Below, in pieces: positions 29,974 to 38,056 of a stretch of 39,474 nt of DNA. Numbering within the stretch: the stretch's first letter is position 1; every line of letters begins with the position of its first letter. The DNA is from a virus (lineage: Duplodnaviria > Heunggongvirae > Uroviricota > Caudoviricetes), in IMG/VR virus record IMGVR_UViG_2861053794_000004, positions 1 through 39,474 of that record, one strand, 5' to 3'. Made by a program: the position numbers and the translations under genes. A model generated the notes under the pieces. It was not told the DNA's origin and did no database searches. It saw only the letters and a list, made by a program, of their open reading frames with translations.

Positions 29974-30262
29974 TAAGCGTGAAATATCGCAAATAATCGC
30001 AAGTTTTACTGATGAAGATTACGAGCGAATCAACAGTGAAGTTGATCGCCTCTGCAAACGTTGCGACCCAATAAGCGAAATGCTTCGCTCATATAAACCA
30101 GATGAACACACTAAGGACGCTATCGACTGGCTGGAAGATGATGACTGTAACTATCAGGAAAAAGCCGCTGAATGGTTCTGGGATGCAATAACCGAAAGAG
30201 TTAAGGCTGAATATGCCTTCGCAATATTCAAACGCAGACATATTTATGGAGAAGCTGCATGA
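29951..30262 (+). CDS. Hypothetical protein (103 aa)
   Basis: ORF ending with ATGA overlap onto recT. Confidence 0.5.
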   Translation: MMILTLNDKREISQIIASFTDEDYERINSEVDRLCKRCDPISEMLRSYKPDEHTKDAIDWLEDDDCNYQEKAAEWFWDAITERVKAEYAFAIFKRRHIYGEAA

Positions 30263-31170
30263 GCAATATCGTTGAATTCGTTAAACAGCAAGAGCAGTTA
30301 TTCTGCGGAGCATTGACTGAACAGACGGTGACATGGGCTAAGGAAAGCCAGTTTGCAATTCAGTATTTCCAGAAAAACGATTACCTGGCTAAAACAGCAC
30401 TGGCAAATCCAACCAGCGCACAGAACGCCATCATCAACGTTGCGGCGATCGGCATCACCTTAAACCCTGCAAGCAAACTGGCTTATCTAGTTCCGCGCGA
30501 TGGCATGGTTTGCCTTGATATCAGCTATATGGGATTGCTTCATATTGCAATGGAGTCTGGTGTTATCTCATGGGGTCAGGCAAAACTTGTTCATGCTAAC
30601 GATACCTATGAGTCAAACGGGCTTGATAAAGCACCAACCCATAAATACAACGCCTTCGGTGATCGTGGTGATATCGTTGGCGTTTACTGCACAGTTAAGA
30701 CGCCGGCAGGTGATTATCTAACGGAAGAGATGAGTCTGGCTGAAATTGAGGCTGTAAGGAAAACAAGCAAGGCGGCATTCAGCGATAAAGGACCATGGGT
30801 AAATCACTGGAATGAGATGGCGCGAAAGACGGTCGTAAAGCGTGCAAGCAAGTATTGGCCTAAGGCATCACGTCTTGATAGTGCTATTCACGTACTAAAC
30901 GAAGAAGAAGGTGTGTGGACTGAACCAGTTATGCCGCACAAATCAGAGGAAGATATCCGCGAAGATGAACGGAAACGCCAGCAGGAAATAATGGATAAAG
31001 CACAACTTCTTTGCGATGAAATGGCTCAGGCAGAAAACATGGACGATTTGAAGCGATATTTTGCAGAAGCATATCGCCTGACATCTGGAATGAAATTGCA
31101 GCAGAACGTACAAGCCATTTACGCAGAATGCAAAGCGAAACTGGAGGTTGCCAGTGAGCAAACTATATGA
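30259..31170 (+). CDS. recT: RecT-family single-strand annealing protein
   Basis: Motif GPWVNHWNEMARKTVVKRASKYWP closely parallels E. coli RecT GPWVTHWEEMAKKTAIRRLFKYLP as recalled. Confidence 0.85.
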   Translation: MSNIVEFVKQQEQLFCGALTEQTVTWAKESQFAIQYFQKNDYLAKTALANPTSAQNAIINVAAIGITLNPASKLAYLVPRDGMVCLDISYMGLLHIAMESGVISWGQAKLVHANDTYESNGLDKAPTHKYNAFGDRGDIVGVYCTVKTPAGDYLTEEMSLAEIEAVRKTSKAAFSDKGPWVNHWNEMARKTVVKRASKYWPKASRLDSAIHVLNEEEGVWTEPVMPHKSEEDIREDERKRQQEIMDKAQLLCDEMAQAENMDDLKRYFAEAYRLTSGMKLQQNVQAIYAECKAKLEVASEQTI

Positions 31171-31636
31171 AATTGCCAATGAATACGCAAAATTGATGGA
31201 TTCAGATTTAGAACCAGAGATGATTGCTGACACAATAGAAGGCATGGAAGGAGAATTTACCGATAAAATAGAGCAACTTCTTTCCATTATTAAAAATGAA
31301 TCTGGTTATGCCGAACGCCTCAAGGAAGAGGCAAAGTCACTGAATGAGCGAGCCGCAGTAATTCAAAATAAGATTGACAGCATCAAATCATATATAGCGT
31401 CATCGCTTGAAATGGTTGGCAAGAAAAATATTCGAGCAGGTATTCACCAGGTAACAATCCGCAAACCGTCAGAAACTGTAGAAATCATCGACTCAAGCGC
31501 CCTTCCTCCTGAATACGTTGAGTTTGAAACGACAATTAAAGCCGACAAACTGGCAATCAAACACCAACTAAAAGCAGGAATAAATATCCCCGGCGCTCAA
31601 CTCAAAGTTGGGAAACCTTCACTTCTTATCAAATAA
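31148..31636 (+). CDS. Hypothetical protein (162 aa) downstream of recT
   Basis: ORF overlapping recT end; coiled-coil-like N-terminal half; family not recognised. Confidence 0.5.
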   Translation: MPVSKLYEIANEYAKLMDSDLEPEMIADTIEGMEGEFTDKIEQLLSIIKNESGYAERLKEEAKSLNERAAVIQNKIDSIKSYIASSLEMVGKKNIRAGIHQVTIRKPSETVEIIDSSALPPEYVEFETTIKADKLAIKHQLKAGINIPGAQLKVGKPSLLIK

Positions 31637-31647
31637 CGGTATCGCCT

Positions 31648-31962
31648 ATGAAAAAGACTCCATGGGAGAAATGGGAAGTCGATTTCTTGCGCGAAGTAGC
31701 GGCGACAATGCCAGTTGAAGTTATCGCTGAAAAACTGGAAAGGACTGAAAAAGCAGTAATGGCGAAAGCAACAAGGATTGGCGCTGACATTGTTAGCCGA
31801 CTTCGTGGAAGACGCTGGACAAGAGCCGAAGTATCACTTTTCGGTAAGTTCTCCGCAGAAGAAATAGCAATTGCAACCTGCCGCTCAATTTATTCAGTAA
31901 GAGCTATGCGATACAAGCTAAAAAAACTCGATGAAGAAAGAGAAGGCATACGAATAAATTAA
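31648..31962 (+). CDS. Hypothetical protein (104 aa)
   Basis: ORF in operon context. Confidence 0.5.
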   Translation: MKKTPWEKWEVDFLREVAATMPVEVIAEKLERTEKAVMAKATRIGADIVSRLRGRRWTRAEVSLFGKFSAEEIAIATCRSIYSVRAMRYKLKKLDEEREGIRIN

Positions 31963-31978
31963 CATGGAGTAATTAACA

Positions 31979-32260
31979 ATGAAGCTAAACATCGACCTAG
32001 GCAAATACGTTATTACCGGAACAAAACACGATCTGATTCTTAGTGAAATAGGAGTTATCAAAGAAGGTGATAATGCAGGGAAAGAAACATTAAGTCGTAT
32101 CGGTTATTACAGCAAGTTTGAGCATCTGGTAAAAGAGTTATGCAACCGTGAAATCCTGTTATCTCAGGCGCAGACGCTACAGGATATTCAGCAGCATATC
32201 GAGACTTTAGGTGTATCACTTAGCATGGCTATTGACCAGTTCGTGGAGAGTAAATCATGA
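31979..32260 (+). CDS. Hypothetical protein (93 aa)
   Basis: ORF in operon context. Confidence 0.5.
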
Positions 32261-32421
32261 GAGGACTTGCATACAATCCCGGCATTCTTCCGGCAGAAAT
32301 GATTATTCGCCAGCGCGTAAAGCCAATGCCATCGAGAGAGGAATTGCTTAAGAGAAATTCTTTTCCGTCAGTGAATCAAAACAAATATCTGAATGCGATG
32401 TGGTGGAGTGGAAAGAAATGA
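32257..32421 (+). CDS. Small ORF (54 aa)
   Basis: ATG overlapping upstream stop (ATGA); its stop overlaps the next ATG (ATGA). Confidence 0.3.
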
Positions 32422-32840
32422 AACAAATGACACTAATTGAGATGGATGGTTTTCTGAAAGGTAAATGCATCCCACGAGATTTAAAGGTTAACGAAACAAA
32501 TGCTGAGTATCTGGTGCGTAAATTTGCTGAAGCGGAGGCCAAGTGCGCGGCGCTGGCTGCTGAAGTTGAGGCTGTGAAATCAGCACATCAAGATGCTGTA
32601 AACACCATCATGTATACCGCCAATCGAACGGGTGTTTTATACACTGAGAAGGCAATTCAAATGTCCTGCAAAACCCCGGCCACCGACGCCTTCCTGGCTG
32701 AAATTGAACGCAAAGCAATCCGCAAGTTCATTAACAGCATTGAACACATCCTGCGTGACAAGCTGTCTCCGTATGACACCGAAGAGATGCTTGAGGCTAT
32801 GCGTATTTTTCTGGAAGAACAGGAAGGTGAGCAAAAATGA
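32418..32840 (+). CDS. Hypothetical protein sharing a PATDAFLAE segment with an Ea22-like paralog
   Basis: Start moved to ATG 32418; shared 24-nt segment at 32679-32702. Confidence 0.5.
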
Positions 32841-33148
32841 TGATCACAAAACAACGTGTAGAAGAAATCATATCCCGTATTGAAATGTATGGGCATGGTT
32901 CCGGGTATACCGCTGATGAGGTTTATGACCTTGCTGTACTGGCGCTGAATTTATCAAATATCGCAAAACTCAAGCGATACGAGCTTGATATGGATGGTTG
33001 TGACTCGTTCGGTCAGGATTGTGGCGCTGACATGACTGAAGATTCTGATGGCGATTATGTCCTGTTTGATGACGTGGTTAAGTTGTTTGAGTTTGATACA
33101 ACCACTCAAAAGTTAGAAATCCCGGCAAAGGAGGCAACCAGTGAATAA
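32837..33148 (+). CDS. Hypothetical acidic protein (103 aa)
   Basis: ORF with ATGA coupling. Confidence 0.5.
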   Translation: MMITKQRVEEIISRIEMYGHGSGYTADEVYDLAVLALNLSNIAKLKRYELDMDGCDSFGQDCGADMTEDSDGDYVLFDDVVKLFEFDTTTQKLEIPAKEATSE

Positions 33149-33785
33149 CCGCTTTTACATGATGTGCTTGCGTGAAACTGTAGGTAATAACGCCTCATTC
33201 CATTGCCATAACGGCAATGGTTACAGTTCTGATATCGATCGCGCTCATGTTTACACGCTGGAAGAAGCCCAAAAAACCTGGAATTGTGGTCGAGATATCG
33301 ATCAGCCTGTTTGCGCTGATAGCGTGGATGCAATGGCAGTGTGGCACGTTGATTGCCAGTACATCCCTACAGAAAGCCTGATTGAGCCAGATTGCACTGC
33401 GTATGTGGCCTATAAAAAAGGTTGCTGGAATGGCAACGATGTTTATTGGCTTCAACACGGTGGATTGCCAACAGATGACTTCAGTAAAGCGACCATCTTT
33501 AGCGTCGCCAACAAAAACGAACCAGGAATAATTTGGTTGCCATTTCCCATTGCTGATGCAGCAAAGCGCCGGACGTTCAATATCAATAACTTTAACCGCA
33601 GAACAATGGTTCAGGGCGCAGGTTTGGTCATGCCTGACTGGTTGAAAGAGCAGAACAGAAGAAAGAAGTCGCGAAGCGGGAAGGTGCGTTGGAATTGTCC
33701 GCATTGCGGAAAAATAACCTGGCAGTACAGCCCATATGATTTTGAAGGCTGTAGTGATTACAACTGTGAAGGATGGCGAGAATGA
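33141..33785 (+). CDS. Hypothetical Cys-rich protein (214 aa)
   Basis: GTG start preceded by AGGAGG; C-terminal CPHCG...C..C motif. Confidence 0.5.
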   Translation: MNNRFYMMCLRETVGNNASFHCHNGNGYSSDIDRAHVYTLEEAQKTWNCGRDIDQPVCADSVDAMAVWHVDCQYIPTESLIEPDCTAYVAYKKGCWNGNDVYWLQHGGLPTDDFSKATIFSVANKNEPGIIWLPFPIADAAKRRTFNINNFNRRTMVQGAGLVMPDWLKEQNRRKKSRSGKVRWNCPHCGKITWQYSPYDFEGCSDYNCEGWRE

Positions 33786-34381
33786 CAATTGACTATCAGG
33801 TACTGCGTGAGGCGGCAGAAAAGGCAACACCAGACGAATGGGTCGCATTTATTTCGACGGATACTGGTACTTATGCGGTGCACACGCCCGGTGATGAACG
33901 ATGTGAAGACGTTATCAAATGGACCGGCTTTGATGGACAGAAAAATGCAGAGAACAACGCTCGTCATGTTGCCGCGTTCAACCCAAAGGTTGCACTGGAG
34001 CTGCTTGGTGAAATTAAGTGCCTGGAGGACACAAATATTGATGCTATGTGTCGAATTGCAGAGCTTGAGACTAATCGCGCGGCGCTGGTGGTGGAGAATG
34101 AGCTGGCTCGTAAAGCAGTTCAGGCATTCTGCGATGTTGTTGGCGACAACACTGAGGTTATCTGTGAGGAGGTTGGGAGAGATGGCGTTCTGGTTATTTT
34201 GGAGGCCATGAAGGCAACAGGAAATATGCCAGCCACCGACGCTTTCCTGGCTGAAGTACGGGCGCAGGGCGTGGAGATGGCTATGGAGCATATGCAGTCG
34301 AGCGGTTCGTTAACATTTGGAGATTGCTACATATCACTTAACGAGTTCGCCGCCCAGCTTCGCAAAGGAGGCAACCAGTGA
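33773..34381 (+). CDS. Ead/Ea22-like protein (paralog 1)
   Basis: N-terminus MTIDYQVLREAAEKATPDEW typical of Ea22-like early proteins as recalled. Confidence 0.6.
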   Translation: MARMTIDYQVLREAAEKATPDEWVAFISTDTGTYAVHTPGDERCEDVIKWTGFDGQKNAENNARHVAAFNPKVALELLGEIKCLEDTNIDAMCRIAELETNRAALVVENELARKAVQAFCDVVGDNTEVICEEVGRDGVLVILEAMKATGNMPATDAFLAEVRAQGVEMAMEHMQSSGSLTFGDCYISLNEFAAQLRKGGNQ

Positions 34382-34917
34382 GCGAAATTAATTACCAGGC
34401 ACTGCGTGAAAAGGCAGAGAAAGCAACGTGTGGTGTGTGGTCGCTAGAATATGGAGAGGGCCGATTTGATGGTGATGATGCACTAATTCATCGCGAGGCT
34501 GCTGGATATATTCCCATTTGCAGAATTGAAGGAGCGCATCCAGAAAGCGGTTTCGATGAAGATTTCCAAATGGAACAGCAGGCCAATGCTGAATTCATCG
34601 CCGCAGCCAGTCCAGCTACTGTGCTGGCGCTGCTGGATGAACGGGAAAGAAACCAGCAATACATAAAACGCCGCGATCAGGAGAACGAGGATATTGCGCT
34701 AACGGTAGGGAAACTGCGTGTTGAGCTGGAAGCCGCAGAGAAGTGCATAGCAGAACTGTCTGCTAGCCACAGCAAATTGCGCGACACAATGGCTGGCATC
34801 CACAACACAATCCGAATGGATGGCGGCTATACGCCACTGGCAGCAATCCTTAACGCTGCTAAACGCGCATATGAAGAATCAGCAAGCGCAGCTGGCATTC
34901 GCATCAAAGGAGAGTGA
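34378..34917 (+). CDS. Ead/Ea22-like protein (paralog 2)
   Basis: N-terminus SEINYQALREKAEKATCGVW paralogous to preceding gene; GTG start after AGGAGG. Confidence 0.6.
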   Translation: MSEINYQALREKAEKATCGVWSLEYGEGRFDGDDALIHREAAGYIPICRIEGAHPESGFDEDFQMEQQANAEFIAAASPATVLALLDERERNQQYIKRRDQENEDIALTVGKLRVELEAAEKCIAELSASHSKLRDTMAGIHNTIRMDGGYTPLAAILNAAKRAYEESASAAGIRIKGE

Positions 34918-34918
34918 T

Positions 34919-35206
34919 ATGGCAACTTTGCAGGAATTAATCGACCTGACGCCAGAACAGGAAAAAGCGTGGAATCGCCTTGTGAAGGCTGTAAAGGATT
35001 TCAGGGCAGCCGGAGGAAAGTTTTATAGCGTCCTGGACACGCTGAGCGCATACAACGGCGAGCACGTTGCCAGCATTGATAACGATAAGGGCTACCACAC
35101 TGCAAGCGTCTATATGCCTAGCATTGATGCGCCAGGGCTAACCAGTTGGGCTGATGATTGGCACGGCATCACGCTGAAAGATGGCGTTGAAGTGGATGAG
35201 GACTAA
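34919..35206 (+). CDS. Hypothetical protein (95 aa)
   Basis: Start set at internal ATG 34919 after preceding stop. Confidence 0.45.
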   Translation: MATLQELIDLTPEQEKAWNRLVKAVKDFRAAGGKFYSVLDTLSAYNGEHVASIDNDKGYHTASVYMPSIDAPGLTSWADDWHGITLKDGVEVDED

Positions 35207-35209
35207 CAT

Positions 35210-36160
35210 ATGACAACTTTCACCGACAAAGAACTGATTAAAGAAATCAAAGAGCGCATAGGCAGCCTGGACGTTCGAGACAATATTGAGCGCCGTGCTT
35301 ATGAAATTGCACTGGCATCACTGGAAGCAAAACCAATAGGTGCATTCCACATTGCAGAACAGCAAGTTGACGGCACAAGTGACTACCTCAAGGATGGAGA
35401 ATGGCCTATTGATAATGGGATTATTGAAGTATACGCCGCCCCTCCAATGCCAGTAGTACCTGAAGAAAAACCAATGCCCAACCCTCTTAAAATGTACGCG
35501 GTCGATGCTGTTGCCGCTATTGCAGAGGTGAGAGGCTGGAATGCCTGCCGCGCCGCCATGCTTCAGGGTGTCGAACCTGCAAGTAATCATGAAGAGTTGT
35601 CAGAGGAGAACGGATCATCGCTTCAATTGCGCAATTTAATCCGGCAGCGCCATGCTGAATGGTCAGATAAGACGTTTGGCTGTGTTGGTCCAGTTGGCCC
35701 GCTGAAACATCTCTCAAAAGAGGCACTGGAAGCCGCAGCCGAACCAGACGATCTTAGCGAGTGGGCTGATATGCAGTTTCTGTTGTGGGATGCACAGCGC
35801 CGTGCTGGCATCAGCGATGCTGAAATTACCGCTGCTATGGAAGATAAATTGAAGATCAACATGGAGCGCCAGTGGCCTGAGCCAAAAGATGGTGAGCCTC
35901 GCTTGCACATTAAAGAACCCGGCAACTCTCCGGTAACTCCGGATGGTTGGATAAGCTGTAGTGAGCGAATGCCTGAAAAGGGCCAGAACGTGCTTATTTC
36001 GGTGAATTTCGATAGCTCTCTGGTTGAACCGCTAATATGCTCCGCACGCTATACCGGAAGCACCTTTCGGCGCGGAGATGCAACGATTAAGCAGGGTAAT
36101 GGTATTGAGCAAGCAACTCACTGGATGCCGCTACCGGAACCGCCGCAGGAGGTGAAATGA
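35210..36160 (+). CDS. DUF550/DUF551-like two-domain protein (MazG-like middle domain)
   Basis: Domain pattern recalled from lambdoid prophage proteins (..AEWSDKTFG.. and C-terminal WMPLPEPP); not searched. Confidence 0.5.
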   Translation: MTTFTDKELIKEIKERIGSLDVRDNIERRAYEIALASLEAKPIGAFHIAEQQVDGTSDYLKDGEWPIDNGIIEVYAAPPMPVVPEEKPMPNPLKMYAVDAVAAIAEVRGWNACRAAMLQGVEPASNHEELSEENGSSLQLRNLIRQRHAEWSDKTFGCVGPVGPLKHLSKEALEAAAEPDDLSEWADMQFLLWDAQRRAGISDAEITAAMEDKLKINMERQWPEPKDGEPRLHIKEPGNSPVTPDGWISCSERMPEKGQNVLISVNFDSSLVEPLICSARYTGSTFRRGDATIKQGNGIEQATHWMPLPEPPQEVK

Positions 36161-36221
36161 TGCTTGGCCTGAAGTATTTTATGTAATTGGTATTGCTATA
36201 TTTTTATCTGGGGATAAACGA

Positions 36222-36464
36222 ATGTTCTCTCTGATTCAACGTGGTCAGATATACACCGATAGCGCTGGCTATCCAGTAAAAATCATTCGTAGTACTGATC
36301 ACTCAGTGTTCTTCAAGAGGATGGATGGCTATCCTGGAAGAGTGTGCATCAGAAAATTCAATAATTTATTCGAACACATTGATCACAGAGAATATCACCA
36401 GATCCTGGCTGAAACAGAGCAGGAGAACCATCTGAAAAAATTACGTGCCATGCAAAGGAGATAA
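36222..36464 (+). CDS. Hypothetical protein (80 aa)
   Basis: ORF upstream of xis. Confidence 0.45.
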   Translation: MFSLIQRGQIYTDSAGYPVKIIRSTDHSVFFKRMDGYPGRVCIRKFNNLFEHIDHREYHQILAETEQENHLKKLRAMQRR

Positions 36465-36582
36465 ACCGGTAAAGGTGTTCGCGATAAGGGTGAATATCAG
36501 CAATGAATAACAATCCTCGCATTCGCGGGGATTTCTTTTATCTGAACTCGCTACGGCGGGTTTTGTTTTATGGAGATGATAA

Positions 36583-36750
36583 ATGCACTTCCGAGTCACA
36601 GGTGCATGGAATGGAGAACCATTCAACAGAGTTATCGAAGCAGAGAACATCAATGACTGCTATGACCACTGGATGATATGGGCGCAGATAGCGCATGCAG
36701 ACGTAACCAATATTCGAATTGAAGAACTGAAAGAACACCAAGCCGCCTGA
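36583..36750 (+). CDS. Small ORF (55 aa) upstream of xis
   Basis: ATG at 36583; stop inside a downstream terminator hairpin. Confidence 0.35.
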   Translation: MHFRVTGAWNGEPFNRVIEAENINDCYDHWMIWAQIAHADVTNIRIEELKEHQAA

Positions 36751-36762
36751 TGGCGGTTTTTT
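36743..36762 (+). terminator. Rho-independent terminator upstream of xis
   Basis: CCGCC-TGAT-GGCGG followed by TTTTTT. Confidence 0.6.
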
Positions 36763-36789
36763 CTTGCGTGTAATTGCGGAGACTTTGCG

Positions 36790-37008
36790 ATGTACTTGAC
36801 ACTTCAGGAGTGGAACGCACGCCAGCGACGCCCAAGAAGCCTTGAAACAGTTCGTCGATGGGTACGCGAATGCAGGATATTCCCTCCTCCGGTTAAGGAT
36901 GGAAGAGAGTATCTGTTCCACGAATCAGCGGTAAAGGTTGACTTAAATCGACCAATAACAGGTAGCCTTTTGAAGAGGATCAGAAATGGGAAGAAGGCGA
37001 AGTCATGA
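36790..37008 (+). CDS. xis: Excisionase Xis (lambda type)
   Basis: MYLTLQEWNARQRRPRSLETVRRWVRECRIFPPPVKDGREYLFHESAVKVDLNRP..., essentially lambda Xis as recalled. Confidence 0.97.
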   Translation: MYLTLQEWNARQRRPRSLETVRRWVRECRIFPPPVKDGREYLFHESAVKVDLNRPITGSLLKRIRNGKKAKS

Positions 37009-38056
37009 GCGCCGGGATTTACCCCCTAACCTTTATATAAGAAACAATGGATATTACTGCTACAGGGACCCAAGGACGGGTAAAGAGTTCGGATTAGGCA
37101 GAGACAGGAGGATAGCAATTACTGAAGCAATACAGGCAAACATTGAGTTATTCTCAGGACACAAACACAAGCCTCTGACAGCAAGAATCAACAGTGATAA
37201 TTCTGTTACGTTACATTCATGGCTTGATCGCTACGAAAAAATACTCGCCAGCAGAGGAATCAAGCAGAAGACACTCATAAATTACATGAGCAAAATTAAA
37301 GCAATAAGGAGGGGTCTGCCTGATGCTCCACTTGAAGACATCACCACAAAAGAAATTGCGGCAATGCTCAATGGATACATAGACGAGGGCAAGGCGGCAT
37401 CAGCCAAGTTAATCAGATCAACACTGAGCGATGCATTCCGAGAGGCAATAGCTGAAGGCCATATAACAACAAACCCGGTCGCTGCCACTCGCGCAGCAAA
37501 ATCAGAGGTAAGGAGATCAAGGCTTACGGCTGACGAATACCTGAAAATTTATCAAGTAGCAGAATCATCACCATGTTGGCTAAGACTTGCAATGGAACTG
37601 GCTGTTGTTACCGGGCAGAGAGTTGGTGATTTATGCGAAATGAAGTGGTCTGATATCGTAGATGGATATCTTTATGTCGAGCAAAGCAAAACAGGCGTAA
37701 AAATTGCCATCCCAACAGCATTGCATGTTGATGCTCTCGGAATATCAATGAAGGAAACACTTGATAAATGCAAAGAGATTCTTGGCGGAGAAACCATAAT
37801 TGCATCTACTCGTCGCGAACCGCTTTCATCCGGCACAGTATCAAGGTATTTTATGCGCGCACGAAAAGCATCAGGTCTTTCCTTCGAAGGAGATCCGCCT
37901 ACCTTTCACGAGTTGCGCAGTTTGTCTGCAAGACTCTATGAGAAGCAGATAAGCGATAAGTTTGCTCAACATCTTCTCGGGCATAAGTCGGACACCATGG
38001 CATCACAGTATCGTGATGACAGAGGCAGGGAGTGGGACAAAATTGAAATCAAATAA
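36986..38056 (+). CDS. int: Integrase Int (lambda-type tyrosine recombinase)
   Basis: 356 aa, MGRRRSHERRDLPPNLYIRNNGYYCYRDPRTGKEFGLGRDRRIAITEAIQANIEL..., essentially lambda Int as recalled; overlaps xis as in lambda. Confidence 0.98.
   Translation: MGRRRSHERRDLPPNLYIRNNGYYCYRDPRTGKEFGLGRDRRIAITEAIQANIELFSGHKHKPLTARINSDNSVTLHSWLDRYEKILASRGIKQKTLINYMSKIKAIRRGLPDAPLEDITTKEIAAMLNGYIDEGKAASAKLIRSTLSDAFREAIAEGHITTNPVAATRAAKSEVRRSRLTADEYLKIYQVAESSPCWLRLAMELAVVTGQRVGDLCEMKWSDIVDGYLYVEQSKTGVKIAIPTALHVDALGISMKETLDKCKEILGGETIIASTRREPLSSGTVSRYFMRARKASGLSFEGDPPTFHELRSLSARLYEKQISDKFAQHLLGHKSDTMASQYRDDRGREWDKIEIK

What the first reader, a model, noticed from the sequence alone, without database searches (positions are those of the whole stretch)
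33126..34381. Identical 19-bp junction sequence at two gene boundaries flanking Ea22-like paralogs
CAAAGGAGGCAACCAGTGA occurs at 33126-33144 and 34363-34381. Each copy spans the stop codon of one gene, the SD, and the GTG start of the next, but the upstream genes end in different frames. Conservation is therefore at nucleotide level, consistent with a linker sequence mediating modular exchange or duplication of early-gene cassettes.
Basis: seen in the sequence. Interest (0 to 1): 0.45.

Follow-up and report, generated by a model that had tools for sequence, protein, structure and literature searches.

The report
Reused gene-junction sequence in lambdoid prophages
The repeated 19-base sequence is a standard ribosome-binding-site, start and stop junction that many E. 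coli prophages place between unrelated accessory genes, and here two copies bracket a 1.2-kb two-gene cassette that is missing from relatives carrying a single copy: a clear example of an old, already proposed idea about how phage genomes swap modules.

Summary
CAAAGGAGGCAACCAGTGA is exact at 33126-33144 and 34363-34381 (20 nt with the preceding G). The flanks are unrelated (16/60 and 12/60 identities), so it is not a longer duplication. The 19-mer is a translational-coupling junction: a strong SD (AAGGAGG), a 6-nt spacer, and a GTG start that overlaps or lies close to the upstream stop. It is the commonest allele of the junction that ends Ead/Ea22-family genes (...RKGGNQ*) and starts the next gene. 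In IMG/VR it occurs in at least 120 contigs, in 28 upstream x 33 downstream flank families (89 combinations). Two control junctions from the same operon each stay with essentially one context. Variation leaves the SD, start and stop unchanged but alters the encoded Asn, and about 8% of upstream genes read it in another frame. So the constraint is on nucleotides, not on a peptide. Homology between phages breaks at its edges. In 115 complete E. coli genomes orf103 is joined to the Ea22B-type gene through one junction copy. The window holds two copies plus the intervening 1,237 bp (orf214 + Ea22-like A). Recombination at the site is inferred, not shown. It is a new member of a known kind, of moderate interest.

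The parts
33125..33144 (+). Junction copy 1 (20-nt exact repeat; the 19-mer is 33126-33144). SD AAGGAGG at 33128-33134, GTG start of orf214 at 33141-33143. orf103 reads through it as ...AKEATSE and stops at TAA 33146-33148.
   Evidence: (D15)
34362..34381 (+). Junction copy 2. SD at 34365-34371, GTG start of Ea22-like B at 34378-34380, overlapping the TGA stop of Ea22-like A at 34379-34381 (GTGA). The upstream gene reads it as ...RKGGNQ*.
33145..34381 (+). 1,237-bp cassette (orf214 + Ea22-like A + second junction copy). It is present here and in IMG/VR locus L058, and absent from the single-junction form found in 115 complete E. coli genomes.
32837..33148 (+). orf103 (phrog_3126, unknown function). 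It is upstream of copy 1, and its last residues are encoded by the junction in the minority frame. In relatives its C-terminus changes (...SE*, ...SEQD*, ...SDQN*) according to the gene that follows.
33141..33785 (+). orf214 (phrog_2457, unknown function; homolog of P7 Upf87.6). It is preceded by the core GGAGGC(A/G)ACCAGTG behind at least 5 different upstream sequences, and by the exact core in four of them.
33782..34381 (+). Ea22-like A (PF13935 Ead_Ea22). It starts at an ATGA overlap with orf214 and ends ...FAAQLRKGGNQ* in junction copy 2.
34378..34917 (+). Ea22-like B (PF13935), with a lambda-Ea22-like N-terminal half. It starts at the GTG of copy 2.
34345..34425 (+). Conserved island of about 80 bp (Ea22 tail + 19-mer + Ea22 head). 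About 65 fetched loci share it, and it has matches in 2731 of 5426 complete E. coli genomes. It is the extended homology patch at Ea22-Ea22 junctions.
31143..31162 (+). Related junction (GGAGGTTGCCAGTGAGCAAA, 16/20 identical to 34367-34386) at the RecT 3' end and the likely GTG start (31154) of the Gp157-family gene.
   Evidence: (D1, D18)
30259..31170 (+). RecT-family single-strand annealing protein encoded by the same operon. It is a candidate catalyst for exchange at short homologies.
   Evidence: PMC3945230, PMC2327257

Best explanation
The 19-mer is a portable translational-coupling junction in the accessory ('ea', exo-xis type) gene arrays of Escherichia-group lambdoid prophages. It carries a perfect SD (AAGGAGG), a 6-nt spacer, and a GTG start that overlaps the upstream stop (GTGA) or lies 2 nt before it. 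In most genomes it also encodes the last residues (KGGNQ*) of an Ead/Ea22-family or DUF2737 gene. The same nucleotides sit between otherwise unrelated genes. They therefore give a patch of perfect identity, 19 to about 30 nt long and about 80 nt of high similarity between tandem Ea22 genes. At that patch, homologous recombination (phage RecT/Red-beta type annealing, or RecA) can swap, insert or delete whole genes in register, so that every product keeps a working stop, SD and start. In this window, two direct copies bracket a 1,237-bp cassette (orf214 + Ea22-like A). The window differs from the common single-junction arrangement (orf103-J-Ea22B) by exactly that cassette plus one repeat copy. 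Shown: the sequence anatomy, the nucleotide-level constraint, the promiscuous reuse, breakpoints at the junction, and the repeat-flanked indel. Inferred: that translation is actually coupled, and that recombination occurs within the junction rather than merely next to it.
For: Anatomy. Not a longer duplication: (flanks 16/60 and 12/60). Reuse: at least 120 IMG/VR contigs; 125 occurrences in 22 x 26 flank clusters, 68 combinations; 169 occurrences in 28 x 33 clusters, 89 combinations after more loci were fetched. Controls: 94 occurrences in 1 x 7 clusters and 12 occurrences in 2 x 2 clusters. Frames: 114 of 124 read KGGNQ*, 10 of 124 use the other frame. Unbiased junction sample: 31 of 80 exact and 64 of 80 within 4 mismatches. 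GGAG, C14 and TGA are invariant; the degenerate Gly third positions change in 0/59 and 1/59; Asn position 2 changes in 10/59, always non-synonymously; GTG changes only to ATG. Mean non-consensus frequency is 0.02-0.11 inside the 19-mer, 0.47 in the 30 nt upstream and 0.23 in the Ea22 head. Breakpoints: where one flank is homologous over at least 100 nt, homology on the other side ends 0-5 nt from the 19-mer in 53/101 pairs (downstream) and 0-2 nt in 39/71 pairs (upstream); 769 of 2145 context pairs share only the 19-mer. J1 and J2 are hot spots for long-HSP ends, with 22 and 24. Perfect-identity runs through the junction have a median of 23-24 nt, and 61-64% are at least 23 nt; the Red-beta minimal efficient pairing segment is 23-27 bp (PMC3945230). 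orf214 follows the core behind 5 different upstream sequences. Indel: the synthetic joint orf103-J-Ea22B matches full-length in 115 of 5426 E. coli genomes. In strain YDC107 the two HSPs to the window (32676-33144 and 34362-34730) overlap by exactly the 20-nt repeat. The phage encodes a RecT-family protein. No competing RNA, promoter or terminator signal was found.
Against: There are no expression data, so coupling is inferred from geometry alone. A bare 19-20-nt identity is below the published minimal efficient pairing segment for Red-beta (23-27 bp) and RecA (31-34 bp), so exchange at stand-alone copies such as copy 1 should be rare. Other boundaries in the same region (orf93 start 25 ends, DUF2737 start 34 ends) and some sites inside genes are equally frequent homology end points without carrying this sequence, so the junction is not needed for mosaicism. 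The breakpoint analysis is partly circular, because flank clusters were defined next to the 19-mer. The direction of the 1,237-bp difference (insertion or deletion) cannot be told. The exact reciprocal joint (this Ea22A tail-J-orf214) was not found. Four of the ten 'other frame' cases come from a T7-8 homopolymer family and are probably frameshifts.
Confidence: 0.68

Rival explanations
1. The junction is only a passenger. It is conserved because it is a good translation-initiation and coupling signal inherited with Ea22-family genes. The mosaic joints around it arise by illegitimate (homology-independent) recombination anywhere, followed by selection for joints at gene boundaries (the Hendrix/Juhala model). 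The 19-mer plays no causal part in exchange.
For: SD, start and stop are the invariant positions. Homology end points are enriched at gene starts in general (31% against 10% expected), including boundaries without this sequence. The stand-alone identity of 19-20 nt is below published pairing minima (PMC3945230). Illegitimate recombination is the favoured general explanation, because conserved boundary sequences are usually absent (PMC3029335).
Against: Random joining plus selection does not explain why the same 6-nt spacer and 4 upstream bases recur between 28 x 33 unrelated flank families, while control junctions stay with one partner. It does not explain why unrelated downstream genes (orf214, a methylase-like gene and others) all start at the same GTGA behind the same spacer. 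It does not explain why the window and YDC107 differ by an indel flanked exactly by the repeat. The spacer is more conserved (0.05 non-consensus) than SD function alone requires.
Confidence: 0.2
2. The conserved unit is a functional C-terminal peptide (RKGGNQ) of Ea22-family proteins, and the nucleotide identity simply reflects protein conservation. Copy 1 would then be a relic.
For: 92% of occurrences are read as ...KGGNQ*, usually preceded by a semi-conserved FAAQLR. The 14 nt upstream are moderately conserved.
Against: Degenerate Gly third positions never or almost never vary, while the Asn codon is replaced by Cys, Ser, Lys or Gly. Unrelated families (DUF2737...NAMWRKGGNQ*) carry the same tail. 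Several families (orf103, P7 Upf87.4, a YdaW-type gene) read the junction in another frame as ...KEATSE or ...EATSE. The C-terminus of orf103 changes with whatever gene follows.
Confidence: 0.05
3. The two copies are the ends of a recent tandem duplication of an early-gene block.
For: Two Ea22-family paralogs lie in tandem. Their heads share a 42-nt stretch at 79% identity (D2).
Against: The flanks of the two copies are at chance identity (16/60 and 12/60). The downstream genes are unrelated (orf214 and Ea22-like B), and so are the upstream genes (orf103 and Ea22-like A). The two Ea22 paralogs are diverged mosaics that hit 9 and 15 different PHROG families.
Confidence: 0.01
4. The 19-mer is the target of a dedicated site-specific system, such as an integron-like attC site, a recombinase core site, or a binding site for a regulatory RNA or protein.
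For: Direct repeats bracket a gene cassette, and the spacer is conserved more than translation would seem to need.
Against: The 19-mer has no internal dyad, and no inverted-repeat partner lies nearby. Folding is not better than shuffles (z = +1.49 and -0.54). There is no credible Rfam match. The only site-specific recombinase nearby is a lambda-type Int/Xis pair with its own role. The junction occurs in different operons and phage types (exo-xis region, downstream of replication genes in YDC107, the P7 hea operon), with no gene that always accompanies it.
Confidence: 0.03

Closest known systems
'Boundary sequences' of lambdoid phages (Clark, Inwood, Cloutier, Dhillon 2001, J Mol Biol 311:657) and the linker idea of Susskind and Botstein 1978, as cited in PMC3029335 and PMC2327257
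   Same: A short conserved sequence at gene or module boundaries, shared by phages whose flanking modules are unrelated, and proposed as a focus for homologous recombination that assorts modules. This junction shows all of these comparative features.
   Different: From my memory of the abstract, those seven sequences mark the borders of large functional modules of the metabolic domain. This one sits between single small accessory genes, is itself the stop/SD/start overlap, and recurs several times within one operon. I could not read the paper, so I cannot say whether this exact sequence is among them. No paper in the searchable library contains it.
Translational coupling by start/stop overlap (ATGA/GTGA) with the SD inside the upstream gene, as is common in phage operons (established knowledge)
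   Same: Copy 2 is a GTGA overlap with AAGGAGG 6 nt upstream of the start. Copy 1 has an 8-nt gene overlap. The neighbouring junctions at 32837 and 33782 are ATGA overlaps.
   Different: Ordinary coupling junctions belong to their own gene pair: the controls gave 1 x 7 and 2 x 2 contexts. This one is identical across 28 x 33 flank families.
Mosaic ea22 genes of lambda and Stx phages (PMC10834534)
   Same: A shared N-terminal segment and coiled coil with swapped C-terminal domains. The window's two paralogs are PF13935 members of this kind.
   Different: That work describes the mosaicism at protein-domain level. Its passages matching my search terms (conserved, mosaic, amino-terminal) do not mention the conserved inter-gene junction, and no paper in the searchable library contains the core sequence. 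Lambda itself has a different junction allele upstream of ea22 and lacks the core.
Relaxed or short-homology recombination by Rad52-like phage recombinases (Red-beta, RecT): PMC3945230, PMC2327257
   Same: This gives a mechanism for exchange at short or diverged homology. The window phage encodes a RecT-family protein in the same operon.
   Different: Those studies used homologies of hundreds of bp. Here the perfect run is typically 19-30 nt, at or below the 23-27 bp minimal efficient pairing segment.
Integron gene cassettes bounded by attC sites (established knowledge)
   Same: An array of promoterless single-gene cassettes in one orientation, separated by a recurring short sequence.
   Different: There is no attC-like imperfect inverted repeat and no integron integrase. 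Exchange would be by general homologous recombination, and the repeat is itself the translation signal.

Membership tests
Lambdoid 'boundary sequence' / linker (Clark 2001; Susskind and Botstein 1978) | A short conserved nucleotide sequence located at gene or module boundaries | tested here: met
   Both window copies and all 124 analysed occurrences span a gene end and the next gene's start.
Lambdoid 'boundary sequence' / linker (Clark 2001; Susskind and Botstein 1978) | Shared by phages whose flanking modules are not homologous | tested here: met
   28 upstream x 33 downstream flank clusters and 89 combinations; 769 of 2145 context pairs share only the 19-mer; control junctions do not behave this way.
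Lambdoid 'boundary sequence' / linker (Clark 2001; Susskind and Botstein 1978) | Homology between genomes breaks at the sequence | tested here: met
   Homology ends 0-5 nt from the edges in 53/101 and 0-2 nt in 39/71 informative pairs. J1 and J2 are hot spots for long-HSP ends. The YDC107 HSPs overlap by exactly the 20-nt repeat. Other boundaries without this sequence are equally hot.
Lambdoid 'boundary sequence' / linker (Clark 2001; Susskind and Botstein 1978) | Recombination actually takes place within the sequence | not testable with these tools
   This needs marked crosses with and without RecT/Red-beta/RecA, and junction mutants.
Lambdoid 'boundary sequence' / linker (Clark 2001; Susskind and Botstein 1978) | Identity with one of the seven published boundary sequences | not tested
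   The paper is not held. No paper in the searchable library holds the core sequence.
Translationally coupled start/stop overlap | The start codon of the downstream gene overlaps or abuts the stop of the upstream gene | tested here: met
   Copy 2: GTGA (34378-34381). Copy 1: GTG at 33141 and upstream stop at 33146-33148, an 8-nt overlap.
Translationally coupled start/stop overlap | An SD within the upstream coding sequence at a functional distance from the start | tested here: met
   AAGGAGG is followed by a 6-nt spacer before the GTG. GGAG is invariant in 59/59 contexts.
Translationally coupled start/stop overlap | Downstream translation depends on upstream translation | not testable with these tools
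   This needs reporter fusions.
Ead/Ea22 family (Pfam PF13935), for the neighbouring genes | A match to the family profile above the curated cut-off | tested here: met
   33773-34381: 71 bits; 34378-34917: 114.6 bits (cut-off 27). orf103 and orf214, the neighbours of copy 1, do not match.
Recent tandem duplication | Similarity continuing beyond the repeat into both flanks | tested here: not met
   16/60 and 12/60 identities in the flanks.
Integron attC-type cassette site | An imperfect inverted repeat able to form a hairpin, plus an integron integrase | tested here: not met
   No dyad in or next to the 19-mer. Fold z-scores +1.49 and -0.54. Only a lambda-type Int/Xis pair is present.

The most novel reading that the evidence does not exclude
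The junction is not just a shared translation signal. It is a standardised 'plug' kept uniform because it makes accessory genes exchangeable. That would amount to a cassette system based on homologous recombination, comparable in outcome to integron cassettes but driven by phage annealing proteins. It would move single genes of unknown function, in register, between lambdoid, Rac-like and P1-like prophages, and even between different operons. Conservation of the spacer would then come from repeated exchange or conversion, or from second-order selection for exchangeability.
Probability: 0.15. Interest if true: 0.6.

Novelty: new member of a known kind. Interest (0 to 1): 0.36.

Why it matters
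How temperate-phage mosaics form is a long-running question: by homologous exchange at short conserved linkers, or by illegitimate joining followed by selection. Reviews note that linkers are usually not found at mosaic joints (PMC3029335). This junction is an unusually clean and abundant natural example. It is the same sequence between dozens of unrelated gene pairs. Matches to the ~80-nt junction island are found in about half of complete E. coli genomes, and Stx-converting phages of pathogenic strains carry it. Its length sits right at the pairing threshold of Red-beta. That makes the linker hypothesis testable at a defined site: mutate the spacer, keep the SD and start, and measure cassette exchange with and without RecT. 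It also matters for annotation. The C-terminal residues of the upstream genes (KGGNQ, KEATSE) are by-products of the junction rather than protein features, and the GTG starts here are real starts.

Tried and rejected
(1) Longer hidden duplication: rejected. (2) Structured RNA or a known RNA family: fold z-scores were +1.49 and -0.54, and the only Rfam hit was a sub-threshold eukaryotic snoRNA model at 36152-36238, which is spurious. (3) Promoter or terminator at the junctions: none. (4) Spread beyond the enterics. The one-genome-per-species scan gave 9 hits, only 2 of them Escherichia. By my calculation about 4 chance hits are expected in 596 Gb on both strands, so the other 7 are probably chance. 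An 'Actinobacillus phage' hit is a 50-55% GC sequence, 83-87% identical to E. coli Rac-type prophages, so it is not evidence of wider spread. (5) Lambda as the source: lambda has a different junction allele upstream of ea22 and no core match in the region. (6) Literature: Clark et al. 2001 could not be read. No paper in the searchable library holds the core sequence. The lambdoid co-transfer paper does not discuss this. (7) Function of orf103, orf214 and orf95: Pfam gave nothing, and PHROGs gave only families of unknown function. (8) Frame-2 readers as proof that one gene family uses both frames: partly withdrawn, because that family has a T7-8 homopolymer and is probably frameshifted. (9) The exact reciprocal product (this Ea22A tail-J-orf214) was not found in 5,426 genomes. 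Only generic Ea22-type tails joined to orf214 through the junction were found.
Full report
OBSERVATION. CAAAGGAGGCAACCAGTGA occurs exactly twice in the window, at 33126-33144 and 34363-34381 on the + strand. No other copy exists at up to 2 mismatches, and none appeared in 100 shuffles. With the preceding G the exact repeat is 20 nt, at a spacing of 1237 (D15). By my calculation about 0.003 identical 19-mer pairs are expected by chance in 39.5 kb. The 60 nt on either side of the two copies share 16/60 and 12/60 bases, which is chance level.

ANATOMY. The region is a tightly packed + strand operon that runs into xis (36790-37008) and a lambda-type int (36986-38056). It is thus the early-left 'ea'/exo-xis type accessory region of a lambdoid phage, shown here in the reverse of the lambda map. 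The gene order is as follows:
- RecT family (30259-31170) and Gp157 family (31154-31636).
- Two small ORFs, then DUF2737 (32257-32421).
- orf146 (32400/32415-32840) and orf103 (32837-33148).
- [copy 1], then orf214 (33141-33785) and Ea22-like A (33782-34381).
- [copy 2], then Ea22-like B (34378-34917) and orf95 (34919-35206).
- A dATP/dGTP pyrophosphohydrolase + DUF551 protein (35210-36160).
Each copy holds AAGGAGG, the spacer CAACCA and a GTG that opens the next gene. At copy 2 the TGA of Ea22-like A overlaps the GTG (GTGA), and the 19-mer encodes ...RKGGNQ*. At copy 1, orf103 reads the same bases in another frame (...AKEATSE) and stops at TAA 33146-33148, 2 nt beyond the 19-mer. Neither neighbour of copy 1 is an Ea22-family gene. 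There is no RNA structure (z = +1.49 and -0.54), no credible Rfam match, and no promoter or terminator signal at the junctions.

HOW WIDESPREAD IT IS. Near-matches are in about 300 of 50,697 phage records. These are mainly Stx-converting and other Escherichia lambdoid phages, with a few Salmonella and Shigella phages. The ~80-nt island around copy 2 (Ea22 tail + 19-mer + Ea22 head) has matches in 2731 of 5426 complete E. coli genomes, up to 13 places per genome, 582 of them on plasmids. In one genome per species (596 Gb) there are only 9 hits, 2 of them Escherichia. About 4 are expected by chance, so the element looks confined to the Escherichia group. An 'Actinobacillus phage' hit is E. coli Rac-like sequence. 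Lambda itself has a different junction upstream of ea22.

WHAT FLANKS IT. 125 occurrences fell into 22 upstream and 26 downstream flank clusters, in 68 combinations. After more loci were fetched this rose to 169 occurrences, 28 x 33 clusters and 89 combinations. Two control junction 19-mers from the same operon, defined in the same way, behave differently. The orf214/Ea22A junction has 94 occurrences, always behind orf214, and 7 downstream clusters that are all Ea22 heads. The orf146/orf103 junction has 12 occurrences in essentially one context. For the target, upstream genes read the 19-mer as ...KGGNQ* in 114 of 124 cases. These include many different Ea22-type C-termini ending FAAQLRKGGNQ*, and also the unrelated DUF2737 family (...NAMWRKGGNQ*). 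The remaining 10 use the other frame. Four of those ten belong to a family with a T7-8 homopolymer and are probably frameshifts. The clear other-frame readers are the orf103 family, P7 Upf87.4 and a YdaW-type gene; a fourth family ending ...RAKEATSERN* (2 of the 10 cases) was not examined further. About two thirds of downstream genes start with the Ea22 head (V-S-E/K-I-N/D-Y-Q-A-L-R-E). The rest are unrelated: orf214, a methylase-like VTGHAAILDMCCGSRMFWFD, VTVCLIDKRRRG, VSGKRMTNREL, VSNSARLQLGF and others. orf214 follows the core GGAGGC(A/G)ACCAGTG behind five different upstream sequences.

NUCLEOTIDE OR PEPTIDE CONSTRAINT. I took a sample that does not depend on the 19-mer: 80 junctions anchored only on degenerate Ea22-head codons. 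Of these, 31 carry the exact 19-mer and 64 are within 4 mismatches. Among 59 unique contexts, GGAG, C14, T17, G18 and A19 never vary. The four-fold-degenerate third positions of the two Gly codons (positions 7 and 10) vary in 0/59 and 1/59. The second position of the Asn codon varies in 10/59, always changing the residue (Cys, Ser, Lys, Gly). The only change in the start codon is G to A (GTG to ATG), which keeps both the start and the stop. Mean non-consensus frequency is 0.02 (SD), 0.05 (spacer) and 0.02 (GTGA), against 0.47 in the 30 nt upstream and 0.23 in the adjacent Ea22 head coding sequence. The constraint is therefore on the translation signals, and to a surprising degree on the spacer, not on a peptide.

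MOSAIC JOINTS. Consider pairs of distinct contexts that are homologous over at least 100 nt on one side. When that side is upstream, homology ends 0-5 nt past the 19-mer in 53 of 101 pairs, and within the Ea22 head in the rest. When it is downstream, homology ends 0-2 nt before the 19-mer in 39 of 71 pairs. 769 of 2145 pairs share only the 19-mer. This analysis is partly circular, so I also mapped the ends of long HSPs (at least 150 bp and 85% identity) across 31000-37000. Of these ends, 31% lie within 25 nt of a gene start, against 10% expected. The two junctions are hot spots, with 22 and 24 ends. But the starts of orf93 (25) and DUF2737 (34) and some sites inside genes are equally hot. The junction is one frequent kind of joint, not the only one.

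THE CASSETTE. I built the joint expected if the DNA between the copies were absent (33026-33144 + 34382-34500). It matches full-length in 115 of 5426 complete E. coli genomes; the best is YDC107 at 96.6% over all 238 nt. In YDC107 the two HSPs to the window (32676-33144 and 34362-34730) overlap by exactly 20 nt. That one junction copy (allele GGAGT) aligns to both window copies. The window's two-copy arrangement is in none of the 5426 genomes at 80% coverage or more. It is present in one IMG/VR contig, L058, at about 100% identity. The exact reciprocal joint was not found, but generic Ea22-type tails joined to orf214 through the junction exist in E. coli W and phage 18-1-2. Other relatives have orf103-J-Ea22 head directly (L104, L081, L006) or orf103-J-orf214 (L019). 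So the window differs from a common arrangement by a 1,237-bp, two-gene cassette flanked by direct repeats of the junction. The direction, insertion or deletion, cannot be told.

MECHANISM. Shown: the junction is a stop/SD/start overlap. It is conserved at nucleotide level, reused between unrelated genes, located at homology breakpoints, and flanks an indel. Inferred: (i) it couples translation of successive genes; (ii) it serves as a patch of identity for homologous exchange. Perfect-identity runs through the junction between different contexts have a median of 23-24 nt; 61-64% are at least 23 nt and 18-23% are at least 31 nt. The published minimal efficient pairing segment is 23-27 bp for Red-beta and 31-34 bp for RecA (PMC3945230). 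RecET can use 5-13 bp at about 1e-8 (PMC2327257). The phage encodes a RecT-family protein in the same operon. Exchange at Ea22-Ea22 junctions, with ~80 nt of similarity, should be easy. Exchange at stand-alone copies such as copy 1 should be rare but possible. Any crossover inside the junction leaves both genes with intact signals, which explains why such products survive.

COMPARISON WITH WHAT IS KNOWN. This is the 'boundary sequence' or linker idea (Clark et al. 2001; Susskind and Botstein 1978; cited in PMC3029335, and PMC2327257) applied to single accessory genes. It combines that idea with ordinary translational coupling. Mosaicism of ea22 at protein-domain level has been described (PMC10834534). 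I found no paper that contains this sequence, and I could not read Clark 2001. I therefore rate it a new member of a known kind. It is well supported as a description and moderately interesting, chiefly as a defined, abundant test case for the debate between homologous and illegitimate recombination.

Noticed in passing
window 32676-32702 and 34229-34255: A 27-nt direct repeat at 93% identity encodes PATDAFLAE in both orf146 and Ea22-like A. It is a second conserved island, with many short HSPs from other loci starting near 34220 and ending near 34270. orf146 also shares PHROG families (614, 492, 368) with Ea22-like A, so it looks like an Ea22-related protein without the usual head.
   Followed up: partly
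window 31143-31162: GGAGGTTGCCAGTGAGCAAA lies at the RecT 3' end and the probable GTG start (31154) of the Gp157-family gene. It is 16/20 identical to copy 2 plus the Ea22 start (34367-34386), so it may be a diverged relative of the same junction outside the ea array.
   Followed up: partly
window 32394-32421: The DUF2737 gene ends ...NAMWWSGKK* here, whereas in many relatives it ends ...NAMWRKGGNQ* through the 19-mer. The window sequence departs from those relatives at ATGTGG, just where they carry the junction, so this is another joint next to the same element.
   Followed up: partly
L191 (phage P7, AF503408.1 87443-89014) and window 33141-33785: orf214 (P7 Upf87.6) and an Ead-like gene lie in the C1-controlled 'hea' operon of P1-type phages. 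They are about 96% identical in nucleotides to the window and are preceded by the 15-nt core. So lambdoid ea cassettes also circulate in P1-like plasmid prophages. The P7 note 'putative tyrosine protein phosphatase' has no support from Pfam or PHROGs here.
   Followed up: partly
L289 (E. coli YDC107, NZ_CP025707.1 1100872-1106109): In this prophage the orf146-like, orf103, Ea22, DUF551 and pyrophosphohydrolase genes lie directly downstream of replication genes (DnaT-like, P, DUF1064), not between the recombination genes and xis. The same cassettes are therefore used in a different operon position.
   Followed up: no
L009, L012, L018, L021, L028, L068 (about 25-35 nt upstream of the 19-mer): One upstream gene family has a T7-T8 homopolymer just before its ...IAAQIRKGGNQ* tail. 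Tract-length differences shift the reading frame in several contigs. This could be sequencing error, pseudogenes or phase variation.
   Followed up: partly
L195 (PP818812.1, 'Actinobacillus phage vB_Apl-pPE4'): This region has 50-55% GC and is 83-87% identical to E. coli Rac-type prophages, which is odd for a phage of Actinobacillus pleuropneumoniae. The host assignment may be wrong, or the sequence may be a contaminant.
   Followed up: partly
window 33110-33130, with L006, L081, L231, L281: In most orf103 homologs the bases before the junction read AGCCCAG|CAAAGGAGG. That resembles the usual Ea22 tail CGCCCAGCTTCG|CAAAGGAGG with 5 nt missing. If the resemblance is real, orf103's other-frame tail derives from an Ea22-type tail by a 5-nt deletion. 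It may also be chance.
   Followed up: no
window 35210-36160: A 316-aa protein combines a dATP/dGTP pyrophosphohydrolase domain (PF04447) with DUF551 (PF04448). PMC10834534 mentions a phage pyrophosphohydrolase of this kind (MazZ) as inhibiting host restriction enzymes, which suggests that this accessory array includes counter-defence functions.
   Followed up: no
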